Shown here: positions 3,185-64,000 of the stretch, in pieces
Layout of the letters: each line of letters opens with the position of its first letter
How positions within the stretch are numbered: the stretch's first letter is position 1
NCBI RefSeq assembly: GCF_035084215.1
Contig: NC_090334.1
Span: 62,744,001 to 62,808,000, forward strand
DNA length: 64,000 nt
Direction: 5' to 3'
DNA from: Heptranchias perlo
Lineage: Eukaryota
Made by a program: the position numbers and the translations under genes
Notes under the pieces: model-generated
What the model was told of the DNA's origin: nothing
The model's database searches: none
The model's input: the letters and a program-made list of their open reading frames with translations, nothing else

Positions 3185-3287
3185 ATTGTAAACAATTTTA
3201 CAACACCAAGTTATAGTCCAGCAATTTTATTTTAAATTCACAAGCTTTCGGAGGCTTCCTCCTTCCTCAGGTGAACGTTGTTGGAAA
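3185..3287 (-). mobile_element. Penelope-like terminal-repeat insertion (103 bp) with 10-bp TSD AGGATTGGGA
   Basis: The TSD lies at 3175-3184 and 3288-3297, and removing the insert restores CR1 ORF2 (PEDWEQFR). A near-identical copy lies on the + strand at 13314-13408. Confidence 0.8.
3237..3275 (-). ncRNA. Minimal type I hammerhead ribozyme
   Basis: The minus strand reads UUCAC-CUGAGGA-A-GGAGG-AAG-CCUCC-GAAA-GC-UU-GUGAA. This gives the core CUGAnGA/GAAA, a 5-bp stem I, a 5-bp stem II and a palindromic AGCU stem III. Confidence 0.8.
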
Positions 3288-9198: not shown

Positions 9199-9232
<34 letters not shown>

Positions 9233-10336: not shown

Positions 10337-10617
10337 TTACTTTCTTATGTGGGGCCCTAATGTCCAAGCATTAGAGCAATGGACTCTCAGAGTACTGTGA
10401 GCTTGATTTTGATTTAATCATTATCTCCCACATTAGATAAAGTTTGCTAGTTCAGACCTATGCCAGCGATGGAGCACTATACAGAAGGGAAGCATTCTGC
10501 CTGGGATAGAGGAACGAGTTGTGGAAATATAAGAGCAATTCCATGCTATTAGTTATAAAAACAGAAAATGAAGGAGAAGCTCAGCAAGTCAGGCAGCATC
10601 TGTAAAGGAAGAAACAG

Positions 10618-22625: not shown

Positions 22626-24604
22626 CCGTGTTGATGGGCATATTAAAAAAGACTGTTCCCTCATTGGTCTAAGTTCACCAGTGAGGTAGCAATCTTTTTC
22701 AACCTGCTAAGCCCCCAAATCTCATATGCTATAGCCAACAAAAGAAGAATCATATGTGAACAAGGGCACAAATAGAAGGAAAATGTACAACTCAGCCTAC
22801 AGGATTGTGTGCACTTGGGTCCATGCAAAACACCCTGCAAAGTTTGGCTAGAATTATGAAGAAGTCTATTAGTCGCATCTGTGTTGTCCGGTATTGCATT
22901 CTACTATAGAGTGCTTGACAATTGTGGGTCATTTGCAGTGGAGGTCCTAAACTCAATTGGAATATCTCTTATCAATGGTTAGGTTACTGCTGTTGAGGTC
23001 TTGAGCTCTAATCTACAAAAGACTCTTTTGTCTGGCTTCAATATGGTGGGAGATTGGACTTTGTGAACCTTGAGGCAGGGATTCACAGACCTCCTTGCTG
23101 CCCAGAGTTCTGCTGCCATGCAATGGGGGCATATCTAGGGTAATGCAGTGAAATTGGGCAGATCTGTCATGCCATTATCCATGCATGCATCAAACAGGTC
23201 ACTGGGGCAAGGCTAAGTCATGTTTCTACCGCTGGTCAATGAAATAGGAAATGTAGGTGATGGCCCTGCTGAATAAATCATAAATCACCTGCTTGATGCA
23301 TCGATGGATAACGAATTGGCTAATATTGCTTATGTTATCAGCAATTATGAAGCAGCAGTTGTCCTTGTGGAACTTGAGACAAAACAAGTACTTTCCCATT
23401 ACTGGATGGCGACAGGGGATGGACTTCAAAAACAGCAAATCCTGGACAAGTCAATGAATGACCAGCCTTGCTATCAATTTTAAAAAAAATCTTGGTATGT
23501 TATTTACCCCTCCCCCATCTCTAGCATGTGGTTGTATCCATTACACTCAGATTGCTTGCAGAGTGACACCAGTGAATTCCGAAGTTGTGGTCTGCTACGT
23601 GGTTGAACCTCTGCATTCAGCTGACAGAGTGATAGCTCCGGAGAACCCATAAACTCAACCCCAGGTTTCTTAGTGAGGAACAGGCCTCCAACATAAAATG
23701 TCAGAGACATTTCAAATGCACAAAAGGGTATGAATTAAATGTAATTATTTCCCTGTGTAATTTGTAACTTTTAGCGTAATTATGTTAGAAACTTAATAAA
23801 CAAGATTTACTGTTGAGGTCTATTTTTGGCCACTTTCCAGTAGTTCTGCGTTACATCTTCATTAATTAACCTCCATTTACTGCCTCATCTCATGCGTCTC
23901 GGGTTTCCAAATTGCTCAGATTAACAGAGGATATAATGTGTGTTTGCCTCCACATCAAATTGAAAACCTTCACTGTGCTTCCAATAACAAGGACGTGCGA
24001 CTCTCAAAGGGATTGTTGTGATCATGCTTCATTTCTCATCACACTTGCCCCATGAACTGTACTTTGCAGAGCACATTGCATGTCCTGATTAAGCCATAAT
24101 TGATAATCCTTTTGAGATTATCATCAATCTTCAGCATCCTGTTGATTGCCAAAAATACAAGACTTTCTTTCGGCTGTTTTTCAGAGAAGCGTTGTGTATC
24201 CATGATGCCCATGTTTCATTTTTAAACTGAACGATGGCTCCTCTGCTTACACAGAGCATTAAAGCAAATTTACTTCATGTTTCCTGAGCAGATAGTAAAT
24301 TAAAATAGCTTTTGTTTGGTTCATTCATTTCCTGACTGCGAGACCCATTTTCAAATCCAGGTCTCAATTAATGTGCAAGTTTTCCCTGGAAGAGGGGGTG
24401 GGGTTAGAAGTTTAGACTGCCTCCTTCCAGTTGTCAGAAGGTAGGACAGAAATCAGGCCAGATACCCATTCCTGTATTATTCAAGCACCATCTCCTGGTA
24501 AATTAATTTTTGATCGCTGTTCCTATGGAATGGGGTGCTAATGTAGGAGGAGGAAAGAATCAGACAAGCAGATAGTTGCAGAATAATTTGATTACTTTGC
24601 TTTT

Positions 24605-25950
24605 ACATCGAGTTACATCGAAACTACAGCACAGAAACAGGCCATTCAGCCCAACTGGTCTATGCCGACATTTATGTTCCACACGAGCCTCCTCCCTCCC
24701 CACTTTATCTAACCCTATCAGGATACCCTTCTATTCCTTTCTCACCCATGTGCTTATCTAGCTTCCCTTTAAATGCATCTATGCTATTTGCCTCACCTAC
24801 TCCTTGTAGTGGCGAGTTCCACATTCTTACCAGGCTTTGGGTAAAGAGGTTTCTCCTGAATTCACTATTGGATTTATTAGCGACTGTTTTATATTTATGA
24901 CCTTTAGTTTTGAACTTACCCACAAGTGGGAACATATTCTCTACATCTACCCTATCAAACCCTATCATTATCATAAAGATCTCTATCAGGTCACCCATCA
25001 GCCTTCTCTTTTCTAGAGAAAAGAGTCCCAGCCTGTTCAGCCTTTCCTGATAAAGATAACCTCTCAGTTCTGGTATCATCCTTGTGAATCTTTTTTGCAC
25101 CCTCTCCAATGCCTCTATATCCTTTTTATAATACGGAGACCAGAACTGTGTACAATACTCCAAGTGTGGTCTAACCAAGGTTCTATACATATTTAATGTA
25201 ACGTCTTTGCTTTTCAATTATATCCCTCTAGAAATGAACTCCAGTGCTTGATTTGCCTTTTTTATCGCTACTTTAATGATTTGTATATCTGTATCCCTAG
25301 ATCCCTTTGCTCCTCTATCCCATTTAGACGCTTATTATCCAAGCAGTATGTGGCCTCTTTATTCTTCCTACCAAAATGCCTCATCTCACACTTACCTATA
25401 TTGAAATTCATTTGCCAATTACACCCCCATTTTGCAAGTTTATTAATGTCCTCTTGCATTTTGACTCATTCTTCCTTTGTGTTAATTACCTTCCCCAATT
25501 TGGTGTCATCCGCAAATTTTGAAATTGTACTTCGATTCCCAAATCCAAATCGTTAATGTAAATTATGAACAACAGTGGTCCCAGCACCGATCCCTGTGGA
25601 ACACCACTTCACACCTTTTGCCAGTCTGAGTAGCCATCCTTAACCCCTACCCTCTATTTTCTGATTTGTAGCAAATTACCCATGAGATAACATCAGGGGG
25701 TGAGTTTAACCCTACCTGCCTGGGGAAACGGTGTGCAGTTAAAATATCCAGGTCAGTTACTCAACGTCACTGAGTTTTGTAGTCCCGGCGCGGACTCGAT
25801 GGGCCGAATGGCCTCCTTCTGTGCTGTAACCTTTCTATGATTCTACGAACTTGCTATCCATTCTGCTACCTGTTCCCTGACTCCACATGCTCTGACCTTA
25901 GTCATGAGTCTGCAATGCGGTAACTTATCGAAGGCTTCTTGAAAATAGAA
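24605..25950 (-). mobile_element. CR1 LINE 3' half (RT C-terminus and tail), decayed
   Basis: Minus-strand fragments read FQEAFDKLPH, KFADD, WQMNFNIGKC and LVRPHLEYCTQFWSPY. Confidence 0.9.
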
Positions 25951-26182
25951 CACTAACCACCCAACGTGTGAACACATTATCAATACACACTGTAGACCAT
26001 TATTCAATGTAATATATTCATATGTTAATTTTTTATGTGTGGTGTTATTGGAATAACATAATTCTGAGGATAGCAAGGTTAGAGGTCCAACATGCCGTGT
26101 TGACTGAACCTAATTTACGCCCACAATTAAGTTTCTTACCCCGACTGTGTCACTACAGAAAGACTAAGCACAGTCCACCCTC

Positions 26183-26620
26183 AGGGGTGAGCAGGGTAGA
26201 TTACAGGGAGGGTGACTCCAGGCCCTTCTTCAGCGCCCATTTGGGGTGGGAAGTCGGTGGGAAGCAGCGTAAATTTGCACGGCCTGGAAACTGCCCACCA
26301 ACAGCAGGTAGGTAGGCCTGTGGGTTTGCTGCCAGGTTGTCCTAAGGGGGTTTCCCACTATCGGGGGGAGGGGGGCAGTGCAATTGCAGCATGGGAGGCC
26401 TAAAATAGCCTTGTGGGACCTTGGAAGAGCACTCCTGCTCCTCCTCACCCCACAACGAATTTTTAAAAAAATTTAAACTTACCTTTTGGGACGTCTCCTG
26501 GCGCCGATCTGGTTCCTCGCTGGATAGGCCTGGCGGGAAACTCACTGCCGTTGAGTAACTGACCTGGGCTATTTTAACTGCACACTGTTTCCCCGGGCCA
26601 CTAGGGTTAAAATCACCCCC
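26183..26620. mobile_element. MITE-like element, same family as 1-465
   Basis: It shares the internal motif ACTCCTGCTCCTCCT and the right end GGGTTAAAATCACCCCC. Confidence 0.55.
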
Positions 26621-27871
26621 TGATGTTATCCCATGGGTAATTTCAGGGACTGTGTTTTATGTTCCCTTTTCATTGCCTCCATCACTGAGTACATAGACTG
26701 AATACAGAAACATTAATTTTCTGCAGACATTGACAGCCTAGCATAGCACTGCACTTCTGCCCTTTCTGCTGCACAAGCAGATTGAGTGGTAGCTGGGCTG
26801 TGCTCCACGCAATATGTTGAAGAGAATAATTTATTGTCTAATCTACGGGGAGAAAGACCTTTTTTTTTACATGTTAATGTATTCCATGGTTCTGTCTCGT
26901 AGATCACAAGCTATAAACTTTGCACAAGAAGACCACATTTTAATTTCATATAGCGAGTGAGATTCAATAAAACTACATGTTCAGTTTGTGTTGCAATAAA
27001 TACTGTTCGGTTTGATATCATCTATATATTTTCATGATATAGCGGTGAATATTGTTGATGCTTCCTGGTTTCTTTCACAAGCCATTGTCATTATGCTGAA
27101 GTGTCCAAATATCACACAACAATGTACCCTTGGGGGTACATAGGAAATATATTAAGGTTGGAAACCTGAATTTTTTTTTTAAAAGGACAATGCAGAATTC
27201 CCAGGTGACTCGCAATCCAGAGAATATCTGAGCCACGCAGACCAAGAAGGTACCAGGTTCAATCTACTCAGCTGAATTAGCTGGTCTCGGCCGGAGCAGT
27301 GGGAAATGGGTTACAATTGGTCTCAGACCACTCGGATTAGGGCAGGGGAAATCAGTTTGGTTTCCCACTCCTGGGGCTCGATTTTAAAACGGAACTGTGG
27401 GTGCGTTGGGGGCTTGGGGTGGGGGTTGAAGAAAATTGCGATTTCCAGGAGCGGGCAAAAATCCCGGCACCAACACGCCTAAGAACACGCACAACCCAGA
27501 GTCATTAGGGTGCACGCGCCGTTCCCGAACCCGGAAGTCCTGCCAGACGATATTTAAACAAGGAGTTCAAGTACTTAAAGTACTTAAAAGGTACATAAAT
27601 CTAATTAAGAGTGAAGGCAAGCAATTTCAACGCTGCCTCAGCGTATTTCCCGTGCCGAGTGAAACACGCCATGGGGAACGAGTCGTGTTTCAGCTGGCAG
27701 CCATTTGGACATTTAAATGCCTGTTTGACAGATGAGGATAAAAGGTGAGTTATTGCAGCAAGGCTGGGAGATCTTTGTGTTTAGACAAAAAATTCTTGGT
27801 TTCCACTCAGAATTGTTCTGTTTACACATATTTACCAACTTTTTGGACCCTGTCAAACTGACACCATCAGG

Positions 27872-29056
27872 ATGGGGGGCGTGATGGCTGCATTCACCAC
27901 TACATCCGAGGACGAGGAACATCACCATCCCCACCAGGCACGGCGTGCACTTCTGCCACTTGTAGCTCCACAACATAGTGCTGCGCCACAGGCACCTGCA
28001 CAAGAGCACAGAGGGGAACAACAGAGGGAGTGACGTTGCAGGAGCCACTGCCCTTGTCAGAGGGTCTACAGACTGAGGCTCAGCTTCCTGGGCCTCTCTG
28101 AGGAGCAGTGCATATGGAGGCTGAGAGAAAGTCACCAGGTGGTCGCAGAAATCTGCAGCCTCCTTCATGCCGAGCTGCTTTCGGCTAACCCTGGTGGCAT
28201 CTCATTACCCGTCACAGTTAAAGTGACCAATACCCTCAACTTTTTCGCCTCCGGATCATTCCAGGGTGTCACCGATGACACCACCGGGGTCTCTCAGTCG
28301 TCTGCACACAAGTGCATAAGGCAGGTCACCGACGGCTTGTTTTGCAGATCCTCGCCAGCCGGAGAAGGCAGTGGGATTCCATTCTGTGGCTGGCTTCCCA
28401 CGGGTACAGGGTGCAATTGATTGCACGCATATAGCAATCCGAGCACCTCCACAAGAGCCAGGACTGTTCATCAACAGAAAGGGCAATCACTCCATCAACG
28501 CTCAGCTCCTTTGTGACCACCGCAAAAGATTTCTTCACCAGATTCCCTGGCAGCTGCCACGATTCATTCATTCTGAGGGAATCCAACATCCCAGGCCTCT
28601 TCCATGCACCAAACACCCCTAAGGGCTGGTCCTCGGAGACAAGAGGTACCCCCTGCACACGTGGCTCATGAGGAACCCCATCAGCGAGTAACAGCGTCGA
28701 TACAATAACAGCCACATCGCCACCAGGTCTGTAACTGAACATGCGATAGGGCTGCTGAAGATGCAATTTCGGTGCCTCGATCATTCTGGGGGAGCGCTTC
28801 AATACGCACCAACCGAGTGGGTCACATTATAGTAGTGTGTTTTGTCCTGCACAACATGGCACAACAGAGAGGGGTACTGGTTGATGAGGTCCCATGCCCT
28901 CAGCCACCACCCACATCTGCAATCAACATTGAGGAGGAGCAGGAGCAGCAGCAGGAGGAGGAGGAGGAGGACAACGACGAACCCATGGGCAACGCAGCAG
29001 CTCACCTGGTCGCTCATGAGGCCAGGGAGTCACTCATATGTGAATGGTTCTCATAA
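27872..29056 (+). pseudogene. Harbinger DDE transposase, frameshifted
   Basis: Fragments LNFFASGSFQG, AIDCTHIAIRAP, NRKGNHSINAQL, LGDKRYP and LHNMAQQR lie in shifting frames. Confidence 0.9.
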
Positions 29057-29359
29057 GATCAGAAAGTGAGAAGAGTCCAGTCCTCACACCACTTGGAAAG
29101 ACCAACACCAACAACCCCCACCCTGCAGAAAACAGTCCTGCAACTACACATACACCCACTGTAAAGTGACCCACTGCATGGCATCAAGTGTCGCTGTTCA
29201 CAATGGAGCACATGAAAGGGCACTATCACAAAAGCCAGTCAAGAATGGGCAAGACGTGGCAGTAGTGGTGAGAATGATAACATTTACCGTGATTTTAACA
29301 AAAAACAAATATAAATGAAAACCATGACAGTCTGTCAGACACCCTTGTGCATTGTGATC

Positions 29360-31386
29360 GCAAATCCTTAGCCTTTCTCTTCCTACTACTTCTACGTGGT
29401 GCACCCCCTGTGACTGCAGCAGAGGTGGTGGCAGGTTGCTCATGTTCATGCCCTGACTGCTTAGATGCTTTCAGGCTACATCCTCTGGGTTTTGGAGCCC
29501 ATGAGGGCCCCTCCAAAGACTGCTCCACCTGCACCTGTGCAGGGGCAGACTCAGCCACCTGGAGAAGAGGCAGCGCTGCAGGTACTGGTTGAGAGTGGGG
29601 CAACGGGTGAGACATGGGAGCGCTTTGAGTAGCGTCCCCACTTCCATGTCCCCTTTCGCCATCATCCTTCTCCTGGACCAGGTCCACATCACTCCTATCA
29701 CCCTGCTGGAGAACAGTCTGGAGGACATGTATGATGCCTTGGAAGCCCAGTTGTAAAGTTTCTGTCTGCCTGTTTAAGACGGCAGAATGTTGTTCACCAT
29801 GAGTCCAAACAGCCGTTGTCAGGGCCTGAATGGACTCATTTGTGAGCCGTGCTTGAAGCTCAATGGAGGCTAGCCTTCTCTCCATCACAGACATTCCTGC
29901 ACTTACCCATGACACTATCTCAAACATTTCCGCAGTTACCTGCGACACCATCTCAAACATTTCCGCAGTTACCTGCGACACCATCTCAAACATTTCCGCA
30001 GTTACCTGCGATACTATCACAGACAGTTCCTCATGTCCCTATGACACTATCTCAGAGATTCCCTCACATCCCTCTGACACTATCTCAGAGATTTCCTCCC
30101 TTGTACCACTATTCCACTAATGCAGGAGTTGGACTCCTCCATCTTCTGCGCTTTTGTGGACAGTGTGCGTGGCACCTGTTCCAGTACTTTGCAAATGTGC
30201 TGCTGTCCCTCAATCATTCTCCTTTTAAAGGATGGCCCCCCCGGGGTTCAGCATCTGTGTCCAGCTGAGCAGAGCCTGGAGAGGAGCGCGCTCACTGACG
30301 CGGACTCTCCACTGCTGCCCCTGCCACCGGTGTCTGCTCATGCTCACTTGTGTGTGGTGACTCACCAGGTGCCAACCCAACTAACTGACTAGTAGGACCC
30401 ATCGAGGTGTGAGTATCTGCGCTGGTGGATGGCTTGCCAAGATGTGACAGTGTGCCCTCAGAGGCTGGAAACTCCTCTAAGGAATCGCCCTCTGCCGTCA
30501 CTACAGTTGTTGAATGGCCTGTAATAGAACAGAGGCAATATTAAGCATCATCACAGATGTGTCATGTAGCGATGAACATACTGAGGTGTTCAAAATGCCA
30601 ATCATTGTTAACATCAATTCATGTTGTGTGTGATGAATGTTAAAGTTGTGTCACCAGATGTTTGTGGGGTGCCAGTCTCGGCATCCCCGACGGACAGGCA
30701 CTCGAGGGTGCGGCTGATCTCCAGGGCCTCCTCCTCCTCCTCTGTAAGGCCCACTATTTGTTGTGGCCCCCCTCCAGTCCTTGCCCTCTCCCGTGCATTT
30801 TGCGCTCTCTTCTCCTACAAGGGGAGAAAGTACAGACATGTGAGGGAGTGATGGTGAAGTGGTCAGCTGATGAATGCATTGCTTTGGGTGAGGCTGACCA
30901 TGAAAGAGGTGCATCAGAGGGTGAGTATCAGACAGAGACATCACATTCGATCAGGATTGGGGTGAGTGGTAATGGTGGGGTCACAAATGGGGAGGTGAGG
31001 AGGTGCTGAGGAAGTGCAGGTAAGTTGAGGATGAGCTTTAAGTGGGTGTGAGGAGTGATATGATGGAGTAGACTTGGCAGTGCAGAATGTGAGGGGGGAG
31101 GGGGTTGATGTGCACCACAGAATGCAGGAGAATCATTAAGTGTACTCACTTTTGCTGACCTAGTTAGGTCATTGAAATGCTTCCTGCACTGGTCCCAAGT
31201 GCGGCAAATGTTGCTCCTGCTGGTGACCTCCTCTGCCACCTCGAGCCAGGCCTTCTTGGCGGCAGAGACAGGGCACTTCCTCCTATCGGCCGGGGAAAAT
31301 AGTTCCCTCCTCCTCACCTCGGCCAGTAGCAGCTGAAGTGAGGCATTGCTGAATCTTGGAGCAGCCTTGCCCCTGTGCTGCTCCAT
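29360..31386 (-). pseudogene. Harbinger Myb/SANT-like protein gene with 3 exons (31386-31150, 30814-30655, 30518 to about 29360), disrupted
   Basis: Exon 1 encodes PRFS..L..L..V..R..LF...AW..VA..V......RTWDQCRKHFNDL. The GT-AG introns sit at the same positions as in the intact copy, and there is an in-frame TGA at 30292. Confidence 0.88.
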
Positions 31387-31854
31387 TGGGTCTTCTGGCT
31401 CTTTGCTCCAGCAAAATCAATTGGATCAATGGCTCTTTAAATCCAGACGTTCCAGCTGACAGCCTGTCATGCGAGTGCGCAGTCCGCCCGCTGCGCAGCT
31501 TTTGGACGGCAAATCCAGAAACAAGGTTAAGGGGCACCAATTAAGTCGCGATCGTGTGGGGAATGGTAAGTTTTATTATTTGGGTTTGCTGCACACCCAC
31601 TGACCCCTCCGCTGCCATCCCGCCGCCCTTTTAAAATCGAGCCCCTAATGTTTATTCAGTAATCCCTGCTGGAAGCGCATGCGTTTGAATATTGAGAGAG
31701 AACAAGATGTAGGTTGGCTGTATTTCCACTAATGGTAAAATAGCTGCTGACAGTCACTGTAAAGGTTCACATGAATATGACCAACAGGGCAAGACGGGGA
31801 CTGATGCCTGTGAAACCATGTCAACAAGGAGCCAGTATATTCAGTAGAGAGCAG

Positions 31855-42484: not shown

Positions 42485-42968
42485 GTTAGTGTCGAGGTAA
42501 CCCAACTAATCCTTAGTGCATATTGCAGAGTCTCAGCATAATCCAGACACCTGTTCAGTTGCAGACCATCTTTTTGATCGGAGTCATGTAATGTTGGCTA
42601 AAAAATATTTGTGGTGTATTGCCAGAATCTGCCACTGAGAACATCAGAGACTGTTTAAATAGATTACATTGCAAAAAAAGCGGTATAGGTATAGGTTAAC
42701 TAGATTTTCTGTGTTGCATTTGTAACACAAATACTATGTATAGATTGCTCTCTGTACCATCATTTAAAAAAAATGAAGTAGCATTAATTTAACATGCTGA
42801 TACTCATTAAGTGATATATAACCAGCTCTTGCTGTCTTTGTTCCTGTTAGGATTCATGGTGTTTGGACAAGACATGTTTGCGGCAATGTGTTATTATGAC
42901 AGCTGAGAAAAAGCAATTAATCAAGATGAATTCTTGAAAGTTCACTTGTTGTATTGATTGCTCTGCAG

Positions 42969-43924
42969 ATAAATCATATGAGATCCCCGCAGAGGAATGG
43001 CAAGGATCATCTGCTGAGATAGTGGGAATAAAGGACAAGGAAGAGCAGGACAGCGTAGAGGGGTCACAGCCAAATGTAAGTGGACACCGCTTTCTGGACA
43101 TGCAGGATACAACTACAGGCTCAAACAGCGAAACAACCAACAGTAGAGATATGCCGACAGAAAAGAAAGATGCAACGGGAGATGAGCCAGTAAAGCGTGG
43201 TTCCACTGAAAATGAATCTGTTGCGGAGCAGTCCCAGGATCAGAGCCGAAGTGAGGAGCATAGTACAGAGGAAAGTGAGCAAAGCGAAGATGAGTACACC
43301 CAGGAAGAGGAAGTGGATGAAGATCAAATCAAAGAGAGTGAGGAGGACGAGGAAGAAAAACACAGCCGTTATGATGACAGTAAGGATGAGGAGCTAGCTA
43401 ACGGTGAAGAACCTTCACAAGAAGATAGAGGCGATGGAGAAACACAGGAAGAGAACAGAAGCCAAAGTGAAGACAGTGACCATTCAGAGGGGGATGGGAA
43501 GATCTCAGAGGAAGAAATAAAGTCCAATGAGGATAACAGGAGCCACCAGAATTCAGAGGATGAAGAAACAGAGGAGGATGAATACTCAAATAATAGTGAT
43601 GAAAAGGACAGGTTGTCTGAAGAAGAGTGGGTGGAGAGAAAAAAATGGAAGAAGATGGGTGAACTGGCCCCAGAGCAAAACTCAAGAAAACACGGAGAAA
43701 TAAGCGATGAAGATACAGCTGTGTTAGAATCTGGAAATCCCAAACCACAGAACAAACATAGTAATTTCCAAAACTCGTGGGGAGGTAGAAGATCTCACTC
43801 TGGGGAAGATATCAGGGAGAAAGGGAAGAAGAAACCCATTGCATCATACCCGGTGCGAAAAAGGCTTGATGTGGAGGATAAGAAAGAGAAAGAAGAGGAA
43901 GGAAGTGCCAATAGGAAAAATGAG
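42969..43924 (+). CDS. CHGA: Chromogranin A exon 6 (large acidic exon, 956 bp)
   Basis: Open E/D/S-rich frame with a WE-14-like KKWKKMGELA and the conserved EEEGSANRK. Acceptor CTGCAG; GT donor at 43925. Confidence 0.92.
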
Positions 43925-45949
43925 GTTTGTGTCATTTTAAGTGCACTGGCTGATTTGTTGTGCTTCCCATCAGTGGTGATCTGTATCATGGTTGTGATAG
44001 TTAGTTGCTAAGATGGAGCTATCTCTTACCAGGCCTATTTCTTGTAAGCCACTGCTCAGATACTCCCTTTGGGGGAAGTTTCTGTAGATTAGCAACTGCT
44101 TATAAACTCCCAGTCGCTGCCCCTGGGGAGGGGACAGATAACCACGGTCAGAAAAACAAGGAAATGACTGTCTTTCTTTTTGACACTGAAGCATGACAGA
44201 TTCAGGCAAGTTACGAGACATGTCAATCTATCTAGATATATCTTAACAGGTCTCATGTGACATTAGCTAGTCAGAAGATATGGGTTGTAATTTTTGAAAT
44301 CGATGGAAATGAAAATCGTACAGGTGTAAAATGGGTGGTTGATCCGCTCCGCCAGTTCATCCCCCAAAAGGTGAATGGTGTTTTATAATAGTGTTATCAA
44401 CAAAGTATGATGGGAAAGGGGTTACAGGAAGTGAGTGTCACACAAGAAGTGTGCACTATACCCAAGATACTTACTATTACCAGTAGATGTACCATGGCAT
44501 TGAATGGGGAAGTCGAGATTAAATTCAGCCTTCAGGTGAAGCGGAGTTAGACGGACAGGGATAAATGAAAGCGGGCCAAGGGAGGATTACAATGCTGGAG
44601 GCTAGAGAGTGAAGGTATGGGGGAAGGGAGAAGGTAGAGCAGGGTTACAGGTGAGAGGGTAGAGCAGGGTTACAGGTTGGGAGAGGAGAACAGCATAATA
44701 ACAACCAAAAGATAATTAAATTATTTTTACTTTTAAATGAGGGAAATGACTCACCTGGATACCTTACCAAAATGGCTGGCAGTCAGACCTGTGAAAAGGA
44801 ACAAGGTGTTCTGTCACCCAGTGGACAGAATGTGGAACTGCAGGCAGACTTAACCCAAACTTTTTAATAGGGAATCTCAGAATCACAGGCTTTTGTGACT
44901 GAAAGTGTGACTAAAGGCTGTGTGCTCTAAATGGCAAATCTTATTAAGGTGCCACATAGAGGCATCTTAGACAATTACAAATATAATGTGGTCTGGAAAC
45001 AATTAACATGTAAACTCCATAAAGAATATTGACAGGACATACCAATTTTAATAATATATGGATAGAAGTAAACGAAAAGGGGTGAGGATGATGTGCATAT
45101 GATTAGGTGCAGGTGTAATCAGGTATAAAATATCGTGTAAAAATTGTAAGGATTTAAATTGCCGTGATAAATTTATACTTTTTATTTAAAGGCCTAATAC
45201 GGCAACTATTTTTTAAAGTGTAATGGCAAACTCATTTCTCCATAGTCCAAATTAGAAATATTTGATAATAATCTACCCTACATTCATTTGTAATAGAAGC
45301 TCGTAGTTATAAAAGTTTAAAATGTATTTTCACACATGGTGTGACTGGCTAAAGTAGGTCTCTTCATCCTGTACATTATCAAGTAATGAGTTAAGCCATT
45401 TCTAAACATAGTAACTATTATTATCTAACACAGTGGAGGGGTTCAAATTACATCTACAATGAGAGCAAAGCTAGTGTGTTCCAAGGCTGTGACTCTCAAT
45501 TTAGTTTTGTTTACCTGTGGAGACTTACTGGCGACTTTATCTTACTGTCACTAACACTTAATGTGATAGCTGGTGCTTTTTATCCATGGTACTCCATGTC
45601 ATGTGACAAAGGTGGTGCAATACAACACTATGGAACCACACAAAGATCACTATTACTAGTGGACTAGAAGGGAAAGTATTACTGAAATCATTAGATTTGG
45701 TTTCAGGGATACTGGTCACGCGTAGATATTGCAGAAGACTAACCTAAACAAAAGTTATATTTGTGTATGGGATCAAGAGATAAGCTCAACATGGTGGCAC
45801 CAAGTGTCAACACATTTTTTTCTTTTTATCTCAGAAAATAGAGGTTATATCACGGCCAGTAGCAAAGTTTGAGACAAACCTCCACAAGTGAAACTGATAA
45901 TGATAAAACTGGAGGTCAGTTGTTGGCTCCACGTTTGGTAATATTTATC

Positions 45950-55814: not shown

Positions 55815-56100
55815 AGGAGCAGGAGCTGAGCGAGACCGGAGCAGGGATATAAAGCACGGAGACCCAAGACCAGAAGGAGTGGGAGCTGAGCGAGTGTGAG
55901 AGCGGAGCAGGGATATAAAGCGCGGAGGCCCGAGACTAGAAGGAGTGGGAGCTGAGCGAGTGCAAGAGCAGAGCGGGGATATAAAGCACGAAGGCCCAAG
56001 ACTAGAAGGAGTGGGAGCTGAGAGAGTGCGAGAGCGGAGCGGGGATATAAAGTGCGGTGGCAACAGAGGCCCGAGACTAAAAGGAGCGGGAGCTGAGATC
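55815..56100 (+). repeat. About 4 tandem 66-bp monomers at the CR1 5' end, each containing TATAAA
   Basis: TATAAA occurs at 55848, 55914, 55980 and 56046, an exact 66-bp spacing. Confidence 0.9.
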
Positions 56101-59100
56101 AATTCAAACACAGACAGAAATTTGAAAGAATGACGTCAGAATTAGCGCAGAGAGGAAGGAGCGGCAGAACCCGAGGGAACTAAAATAATTATCGAGGATA
56201 AGTATTGAGGTAAGGATCTAAGAAAAGAACTAGAATAATTAAACCGGGTTTAAAAAGTGTGAGATTCGGTTCAGGTAAACAACTCCCGGACCTGGTGACG
56301 TCACAGGACAGGAGGTTGGTGATTGGTTTTTTGCTCTCTAAGCTCAGGGAGAGGTTTGAACTAGGCTCCTACAACTTGCTAATACTTTATTAAACAAATA
56401 ATTTAAACTAGATAAATTAATTTGTTTAAAAAAAACTAAAAATAAACCAAGCAAATTAATTATATTAAAACATTGATTATTTAAATAAATAAAACAAGGT
56501 TAGATAGAGATGGCAGTGCAGGTGGTGCCGTAACTGTAGCAAGTGGGAGTTTGTGGAGAGCAGTGTGATCCCAGGCAACCACATCTGCAGTAAGTGTCTG
56601 CAACTCGAGGAACTTCGGCTCAGCGTTGTTGAGCTGGAGTCCGGGATGCAGATTTTGCTTTGCATCAGGGAGGGAGGGAGTTATCTGGACGCTTTGATCC
56701 AGGAGGCAGTCACACCCCTTAGGTTAGGTAGTAGTTCAGATTTGGTCAGTTGTCAGGGACAGGAAGATGTGACTGCGAGTCTGGCAGGTACAGGGACCCA
56801 GGATGCAGTGATGGAGCAGCCTCAGCCTATGACCTTGCCCAACAGGTACGAGGTACTTGCTACCTGTATGGATAAGATCAAAGACTGCAGGGAGGTTGGG
56901 CAAACTGACCACGGCACCCTGGTACAGGAGGCCATTCAAAGTGGGGGGAGCAAAAAGGAACGTGGTAATGGTAAGGGATGGTATAGTCAGGGGGATAGAC
57001 ATTGTTCTCTGCAGCCACGACCGGGTGTCCCGAAGGCTGTGTTGCCTGCCCAGTGCTGGCTGGAAAAGAACTTGGAGCATGAGGGGGAGGATCCAGTTGT
57101 TGTGGTCCACATTGAAAGCAACAAAATAGGTAAAACTAGGAATGAGGTTCTGCTGAGGGAGTTTGAGGGGCTAGGGTACAAACTAATAAGCAGAAACTCA
57201 AAAGGTAATAACCTCTGGATTACTACCTGAGCCACACGCAAACTGGCATAGGGACAAACAGATTAGATGGTTAAATGCGTGGCTGACAGACTAGTGTGGG
57301 AAGCAGGGGTTTCAATTCATGGGGCACTGGTACCAGTACTGGGGAAAGAGGGAGCTGTTCCATTGGGACGGGCTCCACTTAAAACGGGCTGGGACCAGTG
57401 TCCTTGCGAATCGAATAACTAGGTCTGTAGATAGGGCTTTAAACTAAAAAGGGGGGGGACGGGGAAAGTCCAGGTGAGGAGAAAGTTATAAATCTAATGA
57501 GGGAAGTCAAGGCCGTAGAGCAGTGGAGCAATTTGGGTAAAGATAAGCAGAGTGGGACAAGAAGGGACAGAGAGTTTAACGATAATAGTGCATCAGTGAA
57601 TAAGGTCAAATCAGGGGAAAATGGTAAAAAGTTAAAATTAAAGGCGCTTTATCTGAATGCACAAAGCATTCGTAACAAGATACACAAATTAATGGCACAA
57701 AAGAGATAAATGGGTTTGATCTAATAGCCATTACTGAGACGTGGTTGCAAGGTGACCAAGGTTGGGAACTAAACATTCCAGAATACTTGACTTTTCAAAA
57801 AGATAGGCAAAATGGAAAAGTTGGGGCGGGCGGGTAGCACTGATAATAAAGGATGAGATAAGGACAGTAGTGAAAAAGGATCTTGGCTTGGAAGATCTGG
57901 AAGTAGAATCAGGAAGTAAAATCTGCATCAGATAAGAAATAATGAAGGGCAGAAAACACTGGTGGGAATAGTTTATAGGCCCCCTAACAATAGTTATACT
58001 GTTGGACAGAGTATTAACCAAGAAATAAGAGGAGCTTGTAACAAAGGCAATGCAATAATCATGGGGGACTTTAATCTTCATATAGACTGGGCAAATCAAA
58101 TTGGCAAAAGTGGTTTGGAGGACGAGTTCATGGAAAGCATTTGAAACCGTTTCCTAGAACAATGTCATGGAACCAACCAGGGAACCGGATATTTTAGATC
58201 TTGTCTTGTGTAATGAGACAGGGTTAATTAGTCATCTCATAGTAAAGGATCCTCTGGGGAAGAGTGATCATAATATGATAGAATTTCACATCGAGTTCGA
58301 GAGTGATGTATTTAAGTCCAAAACTAGAGTCTTAAATTTAAACAAAGCCAATTACATAGGTATGAGGGGCAAGTTGGCTAAGGTAGAATGGGAAATCAGA
58401 TTAAAAGATATGACAGTAGATAAGCAATGGCAAACATTTAAAGAAATAATTCAGAATTCTCAACAAATATACATTCCATTGAGGAATAAAAACTCCATGG
58501 AAAAAGTGATCCATCTATGGCTAACTAAAGAAGTTAAGGATAGTATTAGATTAAAAGAAGAGGCTTATAATGTTGCCAATAAGAGTAGTAAGCCTGAGGA
58601 TTGGGAGAGTTTTAGAAACCACCAAAGGATGACCAAAAAATTGATAAAGAGTAAGAAAATAGAAAATGAGAGTAAACAAGCAAGAAATATAAAAACAGAT
58701 TGTAAGTGCTTCTACCAGTATATAATAAGGAAGAGAGTACCTAAAATAAGCGTGGGTCCCTTAGAGGCTGAGACAGAAGAAATTATAATGGGGAATAAGG
58801 AAATGGCAGAGACGATAAACAGATATTTTGCATCTGTCTTCACAGTAGAAGACACAAAAAAATACTGGAAATAGTGGGGAACCAACAGTCTAATGAAAGT
58901 GAGGAAATTAAAGTAATTAATATTAGTAAAGAAAAAGTACTAGAGAAATTAATGGGATTAAAAGCCAACAAAACCCCTGGACCTGATGATCTACATCCTA
59001 GGGTTCTAAAAGATGTGGCTGCAGAGATAGTTCATGCATTGCTTGTGATCTTCCAAAATTCCCTAGATTATAGAACGGTCCCAGTGGATTGGAAGATAGC

Positions 59101-60186
59101 AAATGTAAAACCACTATTCAAGAAAGGAGGGAGAGAGAAAACAGGGAGCTACAGGCCAGTTAGCCTGACATCAATAGTAGGGAAAATGCTAAAATCCATT
59201 ATTAAGGACATGGTAACAGGACACTTAGAAAATCATAATATGATTAGGCAGAGTCAACATGGTTTTATGAAAGGAAAATCATGTTTGACAAATCTATTAC
59301 AGTTTTTCGAGGATAAAGGGAACCGGTGGATGTATTATATTTGGATTTTCAAAAGGCATTCAATAAGGTGCCACTTGAAAGGTTGTTACACGAGATAAAG
59401 GCTCATGGGGTTGGGGGTAACGTATTAGCACAGATAGAGGGTTGGTTAACGGACAGAAAACAGGGAGTTGGGACAAACAGGTCATTTTCAGGTTGACAGG
59501 CTGTTACTAATGAGGTGCCGTAAGGATCAGTGCTGGGGCCTCAGCTATTTACAATCTATATTAATGACTTAGATGAAGGGATCGAGAGTAATGTATCCAA
59601 GTTTGCTGATGATACAAAGCTAGTGGGAAAGTAAGCTGTGAGGAGGACACAAAGGGCTCGATTTTAGGGTCGGGTTTCCGGCGGGTTTCCAGCGGGGGGG
59701 CCCCGAAAATCCCGATCTCCGATCACGTGACCGGATTCGGACGAAATCCCGGCCACTTCCGGGTACCGCGCTGACGTGCGGGGCTGCGCGCGCAAGCCCC
59801 GCTGGTGGGAATCCCGCAGGCAATTAAAGCCAGCGGGGTTCCACTTGAGAGCACTTAACTTGCTCGTTGTGGTCAGTTAATGAGCTGAAGCAGCTGTCAA
59901 AAGAGGAAGTGTGGGATTTTACGGTCAAAGCAGTCAGTTTCCCACACTGGGGGAAACAGGACCCTTCAAACCAGGCGTGTTGCAGCCAGCAGCCTGTGCC
60001 AGGTGCCAAGGTGCGCTCCACGGGGGAGCGCCCTCACCCACGCAGGAGGCCACCGCGTCACATAGGGCAACCCCTGCCCTCCACCAACCCCCGCCAAGCC
60101 AGAGGACAGACCGACACGAAACCGCAGCCCCAGTCCGAGGACCCACCCACCTACCCTGCACAACCCCTCACACCAACACCTGCCAG

Positions 60187-61440
60187 ATGGGTGGTGCGTT
60201 GACATCGTCGGAGGACGAACAGGATGACCAGCCCCAGCAGCCTCACAGTCCACGCCGTCCGCCTCGGAGAGGTGGGGCCCCCCAACACGGTGCTGCGGCA
60301 CACCCACCTGCACAGCAGGAGGGAGGGCAACCGCAGAGAGAGATGCGTCGCAGGAGGCACTACCCTCCGCACAGGGTGTACAGAGCGAGGCTCAGCTTCA
60401 TGGACCTCTCCGAGGAGCAGTGCATACGGAGGCTCAGAGTCAATCGCCAGGTAGTCGCCGACATCTGCAGCCTCCTTAACGACGAGCTGCTCCCTGATGG
60501 ACCAAGCAGCATCTTCTTACCTGTCGCCGTCAAAGTCACCACTGCCCTCAACTTCTTCGCATCTGGTTCCTTCCAGGGTGCCACCGGGGACATCACCGGG
60601 GTCTGTCAGTCCTCTGCACACAAGTGCATAAGGCAGGTCACCGATGGGTTGTTCCGCAGGGCCTCCCACTACATCAACTTCGCCATGGACGAGCGCAGCC
60701 AGATGGAGAGGGCGGTTGGATTCCATGCCATGGCCGGCTTCCCACGGGTGCAGGGTGTAATCGACTGCACCCACATCGCAATACGGGCACCTCCGCATGA
60801 GCCAGGGCTGTTCATCAACAGGAAGGGGTATCACTCCATGAACGCCCAGCTCATCTGTGACCACCGCCAGAGATTCCTACACGTGTGCGCCAGATACCCC
60901 GGCAGCTGCCACGATGCCTTCGTCCTCAGGGAGTCCGCCGTCCCGCCCATCCTGCAGGCACCCAACGCCGGCAACGGCTGGCTCCTCGGCGACAAGGGGT
61001 ATCCCCTCCACACGTGGCTCATGACACCTCTGAGGAACCCCATCACCGAGCCGGAGCGTCGGTACAATGACAGCCACACTGCTACCAGGTCTACAATTGA
61101 GCAGACCATAGGGCTTCTCAAGATGCGCTTCAGGTGCCTTGATCGTTCTGGGGGAGCGCTCCAATACACACCATTCAGAGTGGGACGAATCATAGTTGTC
61201 TGCTGTGCCCTGCACAACATGGCCCAACAGAGAGGGGTGCCGCTGGAGGAGGCCCCATCCACACCCGCCACCCACATTGAGGAAGGCGAGGGCGAGGAGG
61301 AGGAGGAGGAGGAGGAGGAGGAGGCGGAGGAGGAGGAGGAGGACGCGCCCGAGGATGTTGGACGACCCATGCGCCGAGCCGCGACTCACCGGGATGGTCG
61401 CCGGGCCAGGGACGCACTCATACGTCAACGGTTCTCCTAG
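60187..61440 (+). CDS. Harbinger DDE transposase (417 aa from the first ATG)
   Basis: Uninterrupted ORF with an HTH region (LNFFASGSFQ) and the catalytic motifs IDCTH, GDKGYP and RSTIEQTIGLLKMRFRCL. It has an acidic tail. The start position is supported by the paralogous MGG start at 27872. Confidence 0.93.
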   Translation: MGGALTSSEDEQDDQPQQPHSPRRPPRRGGAPQHGAAAHPPAQQEGGQPQREMRRRRHYPPHRVYRARLSFMDLSEEQCIRRLRVNRQVVADICSLLNDELLPDGPSSIFLPVAVKVTTALNFFASGSFQGATGDITGVCQSSAHKCIRQVTDGLFRRASHYINFAMDERSQMERAVGFHAMAGFPRVQGVIDCTHIAIRAPPHEPGLFINRKGYHSMNAQLICDHRQRFLHVCARYPGSCHDAFVLRESAVPPILQAPNAGNGWLLGDKGYPLHTWLMTPLRNPITEPERRYNDSHTATRSTIEQTIGLLKMRFRCLDRSGGALQYTPFRVGRIIVVCCALHNMAQQRGVPLEEAPSTPATHIEEGEGEEEEEEEEEEAEEEEEDAPEDVGRPMRRAATHRDGRRARDALIRQRFS

Positions 61441-61737
61441 AGTCAGACACTGCGAGGCGCTCGCATCTCCTCACCTGCACATGCGAGCGGCCATACCAGC
61501 CCCCTCCACTGAAGAGTGCTGCCAGTAATCCTGCACCCACAGCAGTGTGCCCAATGGGTGGCAGCAGGTGTTCGCCGTCATGATGGCCTCCACGGAACGC
61601 AACTACTGCACAAGCCGCGGAAGAATGGACGAGAGGTGGCAGGAGTGGTGAGAATAGACTATTTAATATGTGGAATGTGACATCATTTAAGAAACAAAGT
61701 ACAAAATAATAAACACCCTGGTGTATTCCCTTTGTGA

Positions 61738-63577
61738 TTATAAGGCCTTTGGAATTCTTCTCCGGGAACCCCTACGTGGTGCTACCCCTGTGGCTCCAGC
61801 AGAGGTAGTGGCAGGTTGCTCGTCTTCTTGCCTTGACCGGGTAGATGCTTTTGGCGGACGGCCCCTGGGTTTCGGTGCCCGTGAGGGCACCTCCACAGAC
61901 TGCTCCTCCTGCACCGGGGCAGGGGCAGACTCGGCCACCTGGAGAGGAGGCACCATTGCGGGTGCTGGTTGAGAGGTGGGCGACGGGTGGGACGTGGGGA
62001 CGCCTTGAGAGGCGTCCCCGCTTCCATGTCCCCGGTCACCATCATCCCTCTCTTGGCCTCGGCCCACATCACCCCTTCCACCCTGCTGGACGGCAGTTTG
62101 GATGGCATGTGTGAGGCCTTGCAAGGCCACCCCTAGTGTATCCCTCAGCCTGTTGGTGGCGTCGGAATGTTGCTCACCCTGAATCCGTACAGACGTTGTG
62201 AGGGCCTGCAAGGACTCGAAGTGGAGCTGTGCGTGACGCTCGAGGGAGGCCAGCCTGTCCTCCACCGCAGACAGTCCCGCACCTACCCGCGACACTGTGT
62301 CGCCGGTACCCTCCTGTGCCTGCGCCACCAATGCCCACATGCAGGAGGTGGACTCCTCCATCGCCTGCGCTATTGTGGACAATGCGCGCGGCACCTCTGC
62401 CAGCACCTCAGCAATTAGCTGGTGGCCCTCGACGACTCTCCTTTTCTCTGGTGGCCCCCTGGGTTCAGCATCTGGGTCCGGCTGAGCAGAGCCTGGAGAT
62501 GAGTGCTCCCTCCGTCGCGGACCCTCCGCGGCTGCCCCTGCCACCAGGGTCTGCTCATGCTCACTCGTGCGCAGTGACTCACCAAGTGCTACCCCAACTA
62601 GTTGGCGAGGGGGACCCACCGAGGTGCGTGTCTCTGCGCTGGTGGATGGTTGGCTCTGATGTGACGATGCACCCTCAGAGACCGCCATGTCCTCTGAGGA
62701 ATCGCCCTCCATGCTCGCTTGATCCAAAGACGCACCTGCAAGAGAACAGAGGGCACTTTGAGGCATGTGGACCAACTTGACAGTGCGCCTGATGGCAGGT
62801 GATGATACGGTCACTCGCGATCATGGGTGTTGAGTGTCAGCTTTCCCTTACCGCCCATTTCGGCAGCGACACACTCGCCATCGGCCACCGACAGGCAATG
62901 TCGCGTGCGGGCGAGGTCGAGCGCCTCCACCTCTGCGTCGGTGAGCTCCACCACTTGCGGCGGCCCACCTCCGGTGCGTGCCCTTTCGCGGTTGTTCTTG
63001 CTCCTCTTCTCCTGTGAAGGCAAAACACAGATGTGTGAGTGGGTGCGTCTTGCATCGTGAGACGCATCGAGCATCGGTGTGGTTGGGTTGAGCGTGGCGC
63101 GGAACGGATGGGAGGAAGTGTGGGCCACGTGCCCATCCCATTGCATGGGGATTGGGGTGTGTGGTAGTGTTCGGGTGGGGTCAGGGACGGTGGGTACTTG
63201 CGTGCACGGCGAGGATGGTGAATGAGTGGCTGTGAGGATTGCTGATGGAGCGCAGTGGTGGCTGTGCAGGAGGGGGTTGTGATCTGCTTGGCGTGATGGT
63301 GGGGACGGGATGTGGGAGGGTGCGTTGGTGTACTCACCTTGCCAGACCTAGTCAGGTCATTGAAGCGCTTGCGGCACTGCTCCCAAGTCCTTGGGGTGTT
63401 GCCCCTGCTGCTCACCTCCGCCGCCACCTCTGCCCATGCCTTCCTGGTTGCGGCGGCAGGGAACTTGCGCCCATCCTCAGGGAAGAGTGTTTCCCTCCTC
63501 CTCCTCACGCCCTCCAGCATCAGCTGCAGTGCCAGATCTGAAAAACGGGGCGCAGCCTTTCCCCTTGGTTGAGCCAT
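61738..63577 (-). CDS. Harbinger Myb/SANT-like DNA-binding protein, 3 exons (63577-63338, 63011-62852, 62735-61738), 465 aa
   Basis: Exon 1 is a trihelix domain (PRFS..LF..AW.EVA..V...RTWEQCRKRFNDL). Donors are GTGAGT and GTAAGG, acceptors are CAG, and phases 0 and 1 give an open 1398-bp frame. The C-terminus is basic and NLS-like. Confidence 0.9.
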
Positions 63578-64000
63578 TCTCCCAGACCTCTTGCTTGCAG
63601 CAGGAGGGGCTTTGGGAGACTGCCCCTTTAACTGGAGCTCCTACATCGCGTCGACGGTACTGCGCATGCGCAGCCGGCCGGCACGCAGCTGGGGAGCGCA
63701 GAACCCGGAAGCAGGCCTTAATGGGTCCAATTATCCCGCGATCGCGTGGGGGACGCGAACAATTACCCGTCCGCGTTTTCGACGCTCCCGGAGGACCACC
63801 CGCTGGGAACCCGCAGGCCTGCTAAATTCGAGCCCAAAGAGTCTGCAAAGGGATATAGACAGATTAAGTGAGTGGACAAGAAGGTGGCAGATGGAGTATA
63901 ATGTGGGGAAATGTAGTTATTCACTTTAGTAGGAACAATACAAAATCAGAATATTTTTTAAATGGTGAGAAACTATTAAACATTGGTGTTCAGAGGGATT

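What the first reader, a model, noticed from the sequence alone, without database searches (positions are those of the whole stretch)
59654..63835. Apparently intact, autonomous two-gene Harbinger transposon, likely recent or active
It has a clean AAA TSD inside a dead CR1, TIRs and subterminal GCGGGTT(T/C)CCAGCGGG motifs at both ends. The transposase has a complete DDE triad, and the 3-exon Myb partner splices to an open 465-aa frame. It is strongly GC- and CpG-rich, whereas its host CR1 and the older sister copy show CpG decay. The best-studied vertebrate Harbinger system (zebrafish Harbinger3_DR) was reconstructed from a consensus, so a naturally intact copy is a candidate active element, genetic tool or horizontal-transfer case.
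Basis: partly seen in the sequence, partly recalled or inferred. Interest (0 to 1): 0.8.

Follow-up and report, generated by a model that had tools for sequence, protein, structure and literature searches.

The report
Intact Harbinger DNA transposon in shark
This is a complete, little-decayed copy of a known kind of two-gene jumping DNA element in a shark genome; it may still be able to move, but nothing here shows that it does.

Summary
59654-63835 is a complete two-gene Harbinger transposon: 14-bp TIRs (13/14), an AAA duplication inside a dead CR1, a 417-aa transposase (D193/D269/E305) and a convergent three-exon 465-aa Myb/SANT gene. Residues 132-465 of that gene equal an NCBI Heptranchias perlo protein (P0121). 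Two other H. perlo loci (83-87%) share its exon junctions.

The copy is young in sequence terms. It has 0 disruptions in 2652 coding bases, against at least 11 in 2178 for its host CR1. Only 2 of 43 private amino-acid changes look like CpG decay, which suggests roughly 0.5% decay, under 2%.

Current activity is not shown. No transposase at 90% identity or more was found, and copy number, polymorphism and transcription stayed unchecked. At a published shark mutation rate, 0.5% is about 7 million generations.

Horizontal transfer is unsupported: the transposase nests among H. perlo relatives within a chondrichthyan clade.

It works like zebrafish Harbinger3_DR (NuwaI), but its AAA duplication fails the CWG, TWA and TNA rules. 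Intact vertebrate Harbingers are known; my searches found no full-length shark one described. Verdict: new member of a known kind, moderate interest.

The parts
59654..63835 (.). Whole Harbinger element, 4182 bp
59651..59653 (+). Left target-site duplication AAA
   Evidence: CR1 reads through when the element and one copy are removed
63836..63838 (+). Right target-site duplication AAA
59654..59667 (+). Left TIR, 14 bp, begins GGG
   Evidence: 13 of 14 complementary to the right TIR; same word at both sister ends
63822..63835 (-). Right TIR, 14 bp
59670..59696 (+). Two overlapping left subterminal motifs (2 and 0 mismatches); inferred Myb-binding sites
   Evidence: the binding role is inference from Harbinger3_DR
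59798..59843 (.). Further partial copies of the subterminal motif, one on each strand
63799..63814 (-). Right subterminal 16-bp motif, exact
60187..61440 (+). Single-exon DDE transposase, 417 aa; D193 at 60763-5, D269 at 60991-3, E305 at 61099-101; Glu-rich tail from a GAG repeat at 61294-61343
   Evidence: start ATG supported by alignment with the N-terminus of P0003; AlphaFold core pLDDT 91.3
63338..63577 (-). Myb/SANT partner exon 1 (80 codons, trihelix DNA-binding domain)
   Evidence: same junction in P0122 and P0123
62852..63011 (-). Myb partner exon 2 (160 nt)
61738..62735 (-). Myb partner exon 3 (998 nt): low-complexity linker, probable coiled coil, basic C-terminus
   Evidence: P0121 equals residues 132-465 and spans the exon 2/3 junction; coiled coil is my reading of the sequence
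61662..61713 (.). Candidate polyA signals of the two convergent genes (AATAAA + at 61708, ATTAAA - at 61667), implying overlapping 3' UTRs
   Evidence: use not tested
63662..63711 (.). NRF1-like palindrome (63662) and ETS-like site (63705) upstream of the Myb gene in a CpG-rich arm (o/e 0.99); candidate promoter
   Evidence: NRF1-like word in 1 of 500 resampled arms, ETS-like in 10%; motif names and consensus are recalled
56508..59653 (+). Host CR1 LINE, 5' part (approximate start), dead
   Evidence: Pfam RVT_1; at least 11 stops or frame switches in 2178 bp of ORF2
63839..64000 (+). Host CR1 LINE, continuation past the insertion to the window end
27374..31644 (.). Related dead full-length Harbinger of another subfamily; 16-bp perfect TIRs, TSD CTG/CTA
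   Evidence: at least 7 disruptions over the transposase span

Best explanation
A structurally complete, autonomous Harbinger cut-and-paste transposon of a lineage that has diversified in the Heptranchias line of sharks. It inserted into an already decaying CR1 and has decayed little since (about 0.5%, under roughly 2%). SHOWN: ends, duplication, both open frames, DDE triad, exon structure, relative youth. INFERRED from Harbinger3_DR and Ping/Pong: each CpG-rich arm drives one gene inwards. The Myb/SANT protein binds the TIRs and the repeated subterminal motif, binds the transposase and brings it into the nucleus. The transposase cuts out the element and inserts it with a 3-nt stagger. INFERRED from two sites only: the target is read mainly through flanking half-sites of the form ACWC-NNN-GWGT with a loose central triplet (AAA here, CTG in the sister). 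My odds: proteins functional if expressed about 0.55; element transposing in the species today about 0.25.
For: 0 disruptions in 2652 coding bases, where the host CR1's minimum rate predicts 13 (P 1.5e-6). Simulated neutral decay keeps both frames and the splice sites intact in under 5% of runs beyond about 2-4% divergence, depending on the assumed indel rate. Private amino-acid changes are not decay-like: 2 of 33 in the Myb gene and 0 of 10 in the transposase are CpG transitions, against 26-44% simulated (P at most 4e-4). The decayed relative P0003 has 7 of 16 CpG-compatible changes (judged at amino-acid level by me; P 9e-4). End branch 0.057 against 0.18-0.42 for the 12 H. perlo relatives in its clade. 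2 departures at 76 conserved columns against a median of 11% in 118 homologues. dN/dS 0.24 (transposase core) and 0.21 (Myb 1-110) against the sister. Confident model, pLDDT 91.3, pTM 0.90, whose top fold matches are mostly DDE transposases and integrases, all weak. Target 15-mers match the published Harbinger3_DR consensus at 8/15 and 10/15; background rates are 4.7% and 0.35%. Mechanism from PMC2836001 and PMC9392472, passages only.
Against: No transposase at 90% identity or more in the protein collection, though annotation often omits young repeats (own knowledge). The conserved-column test does not separate this copy (2/76) from the dead sister (2/70); in the clade-based version they score 22 and 24 of 174. 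S140C and F256L hit conserved columns and could impair the enzyme. Relatives' branch lengths are inflated by frameshifted gene models. The decay estimates rest on my own simulation settings (CpG rate 4-8x). The copy was picked for being intact, so survivor bias applies. At 7e-10 per generation (epaulette shark, PMC10587355), 0.5% equals about 7 million generations (range 3.5-36 million). The 8/15 target match is only borderline, and the ACWC motif was read after the fact from 4 half-sites.
Confidence: 0.78

Rival explanations
1. An old, fixed copy from a past burst (3-4% decayed, like P0122 and P0123) that kept its frames by luck and is silent or subtly dead.
For: 33 private plus 9 three-way-different residues in 465 against P0122 and P0123, a star-like pattern. 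No near-identical transposase found. Slow shark mutation rate. S140C is a single-base change at a conserved column.
Against: P(intact) at 3.5% divergence is 0.06 with no indels and 0.005 or less with indels, and the sister shows that indels are common here. Private changes are CpG-poor and 4 of 33 need two base changes, against about 2.5% simulated.
Confidence: 0.12
2. A domesticated gene pair kept by host selection, like HARBI1/NAIF1 or the MSANTD genes, so intactness says nothing about age.
For: NCBI holds a gene model identical to Myb residues 132-465. Sharks and rays carry several conserved HARBI1-like groups with short branches across genera, such as P0004/P0005 with a DDK triad. Harbinger domestication recurs in vertebrates (PMC9392472 passages).
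Against: Non-coding TIRs, subterminal motifs and a perfect TSD are kept, inside a lineage-level CR1. No orthologue in another species appears among the 7 Myb exon-3 hits (all H. perlo) or the transposase hits.
Confidence: 0.06
3. A recent horizontal arrival from another animal lineage.
For: GC 0.62 against 0.415 for the rest of the window. One salmonid-carp Harbinger transfer is reported (PMC9179366).
Against: It nests in a 13-row clade (SH-aLRT 99) whose 12 other rows are all H. perlo, inside a 62-row clade (99) of cartilaginous fishes only (quick tree, 78 rows). Best hits outside named chondrichthyans are 51% or less over 64% or more of the query, or up to 61% over 23% or less. Older relics of the lineage lie in the same window.
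Confidence: 0.04

Closest known systems
Harbinger3_DR of zebrafish (= NuwaI-2_DRer; 4204 bp, 12-bp TIR, CWG, 343-aa transposase, 221-aa Myb_DNA-bind_5 protein; PMC4482050 supplement 1)
   Same: Length about 4.2 kb, short TIR starting GGG, DDE_Tnp_4 plus Myb_DNA-bind_5 genes, 3-bp TSD, partial match to its 15-bp palindromic target (8/15; sister 10/15).
   Different: TSD AAA rather than CWG. Myb partner 465 aa, longer than any in the 14 NuwaI rows (up to 280 aa) and 14 NuwaII rows (up to 394 aa) that I saw of the supplement tables. Natural open frames rather than a consensus. Direct sequence comparison was not possible.
NuwaII group (C|TNA|G; turtle, amphioxus and others; PMC4482050)
   Same: C and G flank the triplet (C|AAA|G), giving the same 3-bp versus 5-bp ambiguity; transposase of 413-495 aa in the rows seen, 417 aa here.
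   Different: First base of the triplet is A, not T; the sister's TSD is CTG; best Myb family is Myb_DNA-bind_5, with Myb_DNA-bind_4 below its cut-off.
H. perlo annotated relatives P0003 (transposase) and P0121-P0127 (Myb partner)
   Same: Same family and exon structure: P0003 84% over 251 aa; P0123 465 aa at 87%; P0122 83%; P0121 100% over 334 aa.
   Different: Annotated only as 'putative nuclease HARBI1', 'uncharacterized' or 'myb-related' proteins. P0003 is frameshifted and lacks the second D and the E.
Coelacanth Harbinger elements (Smith et al. 2012; paper not held; seen only through PMC5381603 and PMC9179366)
   Same: Natural Harbingers in a slowly evolving vertebrate, reported with ongoing accumulation and expression in a mouse transgenic line.
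   Different: Different host lineage; sequence relation not tested.
Domesticated HARBI1, NAIF1 and MSANTD1-4 (PMC9392472 passages)
   Same: Same two protein types.
   Different: Those are described as host genes conserved across jawed vertebrates; this has TIRs and a TSD and sits inside a LINE.

Membership tests
Harbinger superfamily, broad sense (autonomous element) | DDE transposase ORF with intact triad | tested here: met
   Pfam PF13359 127 bits against cut-off 24.8; D193/D269/E305, the triad seen in 62 of 120 homologues
Harbinger superfamily, broad sense (autonomous element) | Second, separate Myb/SANT ORF | tested here: met
   PF13873 39 bits against cut-off 21.7; 465-aa spliced frame
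Harbinger superfamily, broad sense (autonomous element) | TIRs and a 3-bp TSD | tested here: met
   14 bp is shorter than the 25-50 bp given in PMC9179366 but inside the ranges in PMC4482050
Harbinger superfamily, broad sense (autonomous element) | Dispersed related copies | tested here: met
   Sister and relics in the window; 7 H. perlo Myb clusters on 7 different contigs by length. Near-identical copies not established
Harbinger superfamily, broad sense (autonomous element) | Mobility needing both proteins; Myb binds ends and transposase | not testable with these tools
   Needs cell or biochemical assays; the complex predictor was not available
PIF/Harbinger group in the narrow sense of Han et al. 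2015 | TWA TSD | tested here: not met
   AAA; sister CTG/CTA; definition
NuwaI (includes Harbinger3_DR) | TIR begins GGG, 12-61 bp; Myb_DNA-bind_5 partner | tested here: met
NuwaI (includes Harbinger3_DR) | CWG TSD | tested here: not met
   This copy AAA; the sister has CTG on the left and CTA on the right. One site cannot give the family consensus, so the element is not filed as NuwaI, only as working like it
NuwaII | C|TNA|G target | tested here: not met
   C|AAA|G: flanking C and G agree, first T does not
NuwaI / NuwaII | Falls in the Nuwa clade of the DDE tree | not tested
Domesticated HARBI1/NAIF1/MSANTD genes | Orthologous host gene across species, without transposon ends | tested here: not met
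   TIRs and TSD present; Myb exon-3 hits only in H. perlo (7 of 7); synteny not testable
Horizontally transferred element | Unexpectedly high identity in a distant taxon | tested here: not met
   limited to annotated proteins
Currently active element | Near-identical copies, insertion polymorphism, transcripts | not testable with these tools
   No eukaryotic genome or RNA-seq search on hand; the 4 members of the P0121 cluster could not be listed, so isoforms and separate loci cannot be told apart

The most novel reading that the evidence does not exclude
A still-mobile natural vertebrate Harbinger, the first from a cartilaginous fish. It belongs to a Heptranchias radiation of several coexisting subfamilies and picks targets by palindromic flanks (ACWC-NNN-GWGT) with a free central triplet, which would break the TSD-based split into PIF, NuwaI and NuwaII. 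It would be usable without reconstruction as a two-component, semi-site-specific vector and as a substrate for a first Harbinger transpososome structure (no Harbinger match in the PDB by sequence, profile or fold).
Probability: 0.22. Interest if true: 0.65.

Novelty: new member of a known kind. Interest (0 to 1): 0.42.

Why it matters
Two surveys that sampled only the elephant shark or early assemblies called Harbinger absent from sharks, and one asked for other cartilaginous fishes to be checked (PMC4482050; PMC9179366). Later shark genome papers list PIF-Harbinger only as a repeat class (whale shark PMC8455134; grey reef shark PMC12498223). This copy supplies a complete anatomy (ends, both genes, introns, target) and shows the lineage stayed functional into the recent history of one shark line, in genomes reported as LINE-dominated. 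It also suggests that many shark 'putative nuclease HARBI1' annotations are transposon copies. If the natural proteins work in cells, they give a second vertebrate Harbinger system beside the reconstructed zebrafish one, with a possibly different target rule. If they do not, this is a well-preserved, ordinary transposon fossil.

Tried and rejected
(1) Conserved-column departures as a test of youth: rejected as a discriminator, since the dead sister scores the same (2/70 vs 2/76; 24 vs 22 of 174). (2) Fewer private changes in the Myb domain than in the rest: 3/110 vs 30/355, P 0.053, inconclusive. (3) Insertion of both copies into the same CR1 site: rejected; the sister sits in different, SINE-like sequence (the SINE label is recalled), and no paralogous empty site for it was found in the window. 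The other CR1 copy in the window has a deletion over the insertion point, so it gives colinearity but not an empty-site alignment. (4) 5-bp TSD reading: cannot be excluded from this copy alone; the sister fits 3 bp with 1 mismatch against 2. (5) P0128 as the sister's or the element's protein: rejected, 68% and 74%. (6) PDB by sequence and by profile: nothing significant. Foldseek: no match at E 0.001 or better; the wider structural search was not run. (7) ESM Atlas for the coiled-coil part of P0121: best score 0.79, below the lead level. (8) Rfam over 59000-64000: 0 matches. The bacterial promoter scan is irrelevant to a vertebrate. (9) ETS, E-box and CRE-like words in the arms are not above chance singly (10-17% of resamples). 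(10) The members of the P0121 cluster could not be listed and the complex predictor was not available, so near-identical copy number and Myb-transposase binding stay open. (11) The careful tree did not finish; the quick tree is cited. It holds the window protein plus 77 of the 120 hits (first 70 and 7 chosen); 43 were left out. (12) Sinzelle 2008 and Smith 2012 are not held; Naville 2014 has 0 mentions of Harbinger.
Full report
Observation. The element spans 59654-63835 (4182 bp), with AAA on both sides and 14-bp TIRs that pair at 13 of 14 positions. It interrupts a CR1 reverse-transcriptase region: both flanks match another CR1 copy in order, and the CR1 reads through the junction once the element and one AAA are removed. 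The 16-bp subterminal motif is exact at 59681 (+) and 63814 (-), and all 4 of 4 copies of its 8-bp core in the window lie in the element's arms. The transposase (60187-61440, 417 aa) matches Pfam DDE_Tnp_4 with D193, D269 and E305. The Myb gene on the minus strand splices through two GT-AG introns to 465 aa with no stop. The genes converge, and their candidate polyA signals imply overlapping 3' ends (use not tested).

Independent support for the gene models. NCBI protein P0121 (Heptranchias perlo, cluster of 4) is identical to Myb residues 132-465 and spans the exon 2/3 junction. It is either this locus or an identical copy; I could not tell which, nor whether the 4 members are isoforms or loci. 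P0123 (465 aa, 404/465 identical) and P0122 (388/465) lie on other contigs and share both junctions. These are annotation models, not proof of transcription. All 7 hits of the exon-3 search were H. perlo (only the 8000 best candidates were scored). The closest transposase is P0003, also H. perlo, 211/251 identical and frameshifted. An AlphaFold model of the transposase core is confident (pLDDT 91.3, pTM 0.90). Its top fold matches are mostly DDE transposases and integrases, none at E 0.001 or better, and PDB sequence and profile searches found nothing significant.

How young is it? Four lines say young. (a) The host CR1 needs at least 11 stops or frame switches in 2178 bp and the sister at least 7 over its transposase, while the element has 0 in 2652 bp (expected 13 at the host's rate, P 1.5e-6). 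(b) In simulation, both frames and splice sites survive in under 5% of runs beyond about 2% divergence with 0.1 indels per substitution, and beyond about 4% with none. (c) The copy differs from its relatives by 33 private residues in the Myb gene and 10 in transposase residues 53-253, but only 2 of these 43 are CpG transitions, against 26-44% under simulated decay (P at most 4e-4). P0003 has 7 of 16 CpG-compatible changes, by my amino-acid-level reading. So the differences are mostly subfamily evolution, not decay after insertion. The implied decay is 0.7-1.2% of residues (upper bound 2.5-4.2%), roughly 0.3-0.5% of bases and under 2% by my conversion. (d) Its end branch is 0.057 against 0.18-0.42 for clade mates, though their broken models inflate this.

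Results against. Conserved-column departures do not separate it from the dead sister (2/76 vs 2/70; 22 vs 24 of 174). S140C and F256L hit conserved columns. The CpG contrast with the sister is partly a general GC difference, and the sister is a separate subfamily (dN/dS 0.24 in the core, dS 0.58). No transposase at 90% identity or more appears among the 120 listed of 296 hits or 37 short hits. At 7e-10 mutations per base per generation (epaulette shark, PMC10587355 passages), 0.5% is about 7 million generations. The data cannot tell a new insertion from one of that age. 'Young in sequence' is supported; 'active now' is open.

Origin. In a quick maximum-likelihood tree of 78 rows (window protein plus 77 of 120 hits), the transposase falls in a 13-row clade (SH-aLRT 99) whose other 12 rows are H. 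perlo, within a 62-row clade (99) made only of cartilaginous fishes. Hits outside named chondrichthyans reach 51% over long alignments. Older Harbinger relics lie at about 7750-10340 and 23200-23450. This fits long residence with lineage-specific expansion, not horizontal arrival. The test covers annotated proteins only.

Mechanism. By analogy with Harbinger3_DR, where both proteins were required, the Myb protein bound the TIRs and the transposase, and the interaction was needed for nuclear import (PMC2836001 passages; PMC9392472 passages), the Myb partner would load the transposase on the ends, probably using the repeated subterminal motif. The transposase would excise and reinsert with a 3-nt stagger. 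The right arm is CpG-rich and carries an NRF1-like palindrome that appeared in 1 of 500 resamples (motif recalled), a plausible methylation-sensitive promoter. All of this is inference. The target 15-mers match the zebrafish consensus (PMC3016246 passage) at 8/15 here and 10/15 in the sister, where 4.7% and 0.35% of window 15-mers do as well. Three of four half-sites read ACWC exactly, noticed after the fact. The central triplet differs (AAA, CTG), which suggests flank-driven targeting but rests on two sites of two subfamilies.

Comparison. It meets the tested features of an autonomous Harbinger in the broad sense. In the scheme of Han et al. (PMC4482050; I read parts 1-3 of 4 of the text and the first 15 places of each term in supplement 1) it resembles NuwaI, which holds Harbinger3_DR: GGG termini, Myb_DNA-bind_5, about 4.2 kb. 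Its TSD fails TWA, CWG and TNA, so I do not file it in any of the three groups. The C|AAA|G context echoes NuwaII. Supplements 2 and 3 were not read and may hold TSD exceptions.

Novelty. Families with two intact ORFs are catalogued widely. Harbinger transcription is reported in fishes (PMC9179366, parts 1 and 3 of 6 and passages), ongoing accumulation in coelacanth (PMC5381603 passage) and a spontaneous insertion in a nematode (bioRxiv 10.64898/2026.05.26.728016, abstract and passages). For sharks, earlier surveys reported absence and later genome papers list the superfamily as a repeat class (passages). My searches (open-licence papers and bioRxiv only, most hits seen as listings) found no description of a full-length two-gene shark element. 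Repbase and Dfam were not searchable and may hold one.

Verdict. A real, complete and little-decayed Harbinger of a Heptranchias lineage; a new member of a known kind. It is a good candidate for a cell assay, but activity is unproven and horizontal transfer is unsupported. Interest 0.42. The boldest reading left open (still mobile, with a relaxed central triplet) has probability about 0.22 and would merit about 0.65.

Noticed in passing
window 27374-31644: Dead full-length Harbinger of a related subfamily with perfect 16-bp TIRs and TSD CTG/CTA, inserted in SINE-like sequence (label recalled). It has few substitutions at conserved columns but many indels.
   Followed up: yes
window 29884-30096: In the sister's Myb exon 3, a 33-bp (11-residue) unit is repeated 6.5 times in the probable coiled coil. 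P0124 has an extra 11 residues there and the intact copy lacks the expansion: a variable-length coiled coil in this family.
   Followed up: partly
window 7747-10336: A third, older Harbinger relic: Myb exon 1 at 10056-9841 (49% to the intact one), exon-3 remnants 9039-8261, a transposase scrap and a TIR-like end at 10336.
   Followed up: partly
window 23208-23450: A fourth transposase fragment on the minus strand, with a TIR-like word at 23662. Four Harbinger-derived loci in 64 kb suggest high density in this genome.
   Followed up: no
window 25673-26643: 106-bp inverted repeats at 90% about 970 bp apart; possibly a MITE.
   Followed up: no
window 42938-44011: Long acidic exon-like ORF (357 aa) that looks like a chromogranin-type exon (recalled resemblance; no Pfam hit). 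Probably the host gene of the region.
   Followed up: partly
window 20411-22631: Tandem array of a 39-bp unit, about 57 copies, giving long spurious open frames.
   Followed up: no
window 61662-61713: The two convergent genes' candidate polyA signals cross, so their transcripts would overlap and could form double-stranded RNA, a possible self-silencing feature.
   Followed up: no
P0004/P0005, P0015/P0017/P0033/P0057, P0016/P0021, P0008/P0011: Short-branched groups of HARBI1-like proteins shared across shark and ray genera, with a DDK triad in P0004/P0005; these look like chondrichthyan domesticated Harbinger transposases beyond HARBI1. Synteny was not tested.
   Followed up: no
window 1065-5340 and 56508-64000: Two near-full-length dead CR1 copies, about 69% identical to each other; a 66-bp unit repeated 3.4 times at 55830-56052 may belong to the 5' end of the second.
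   Followed up: partly
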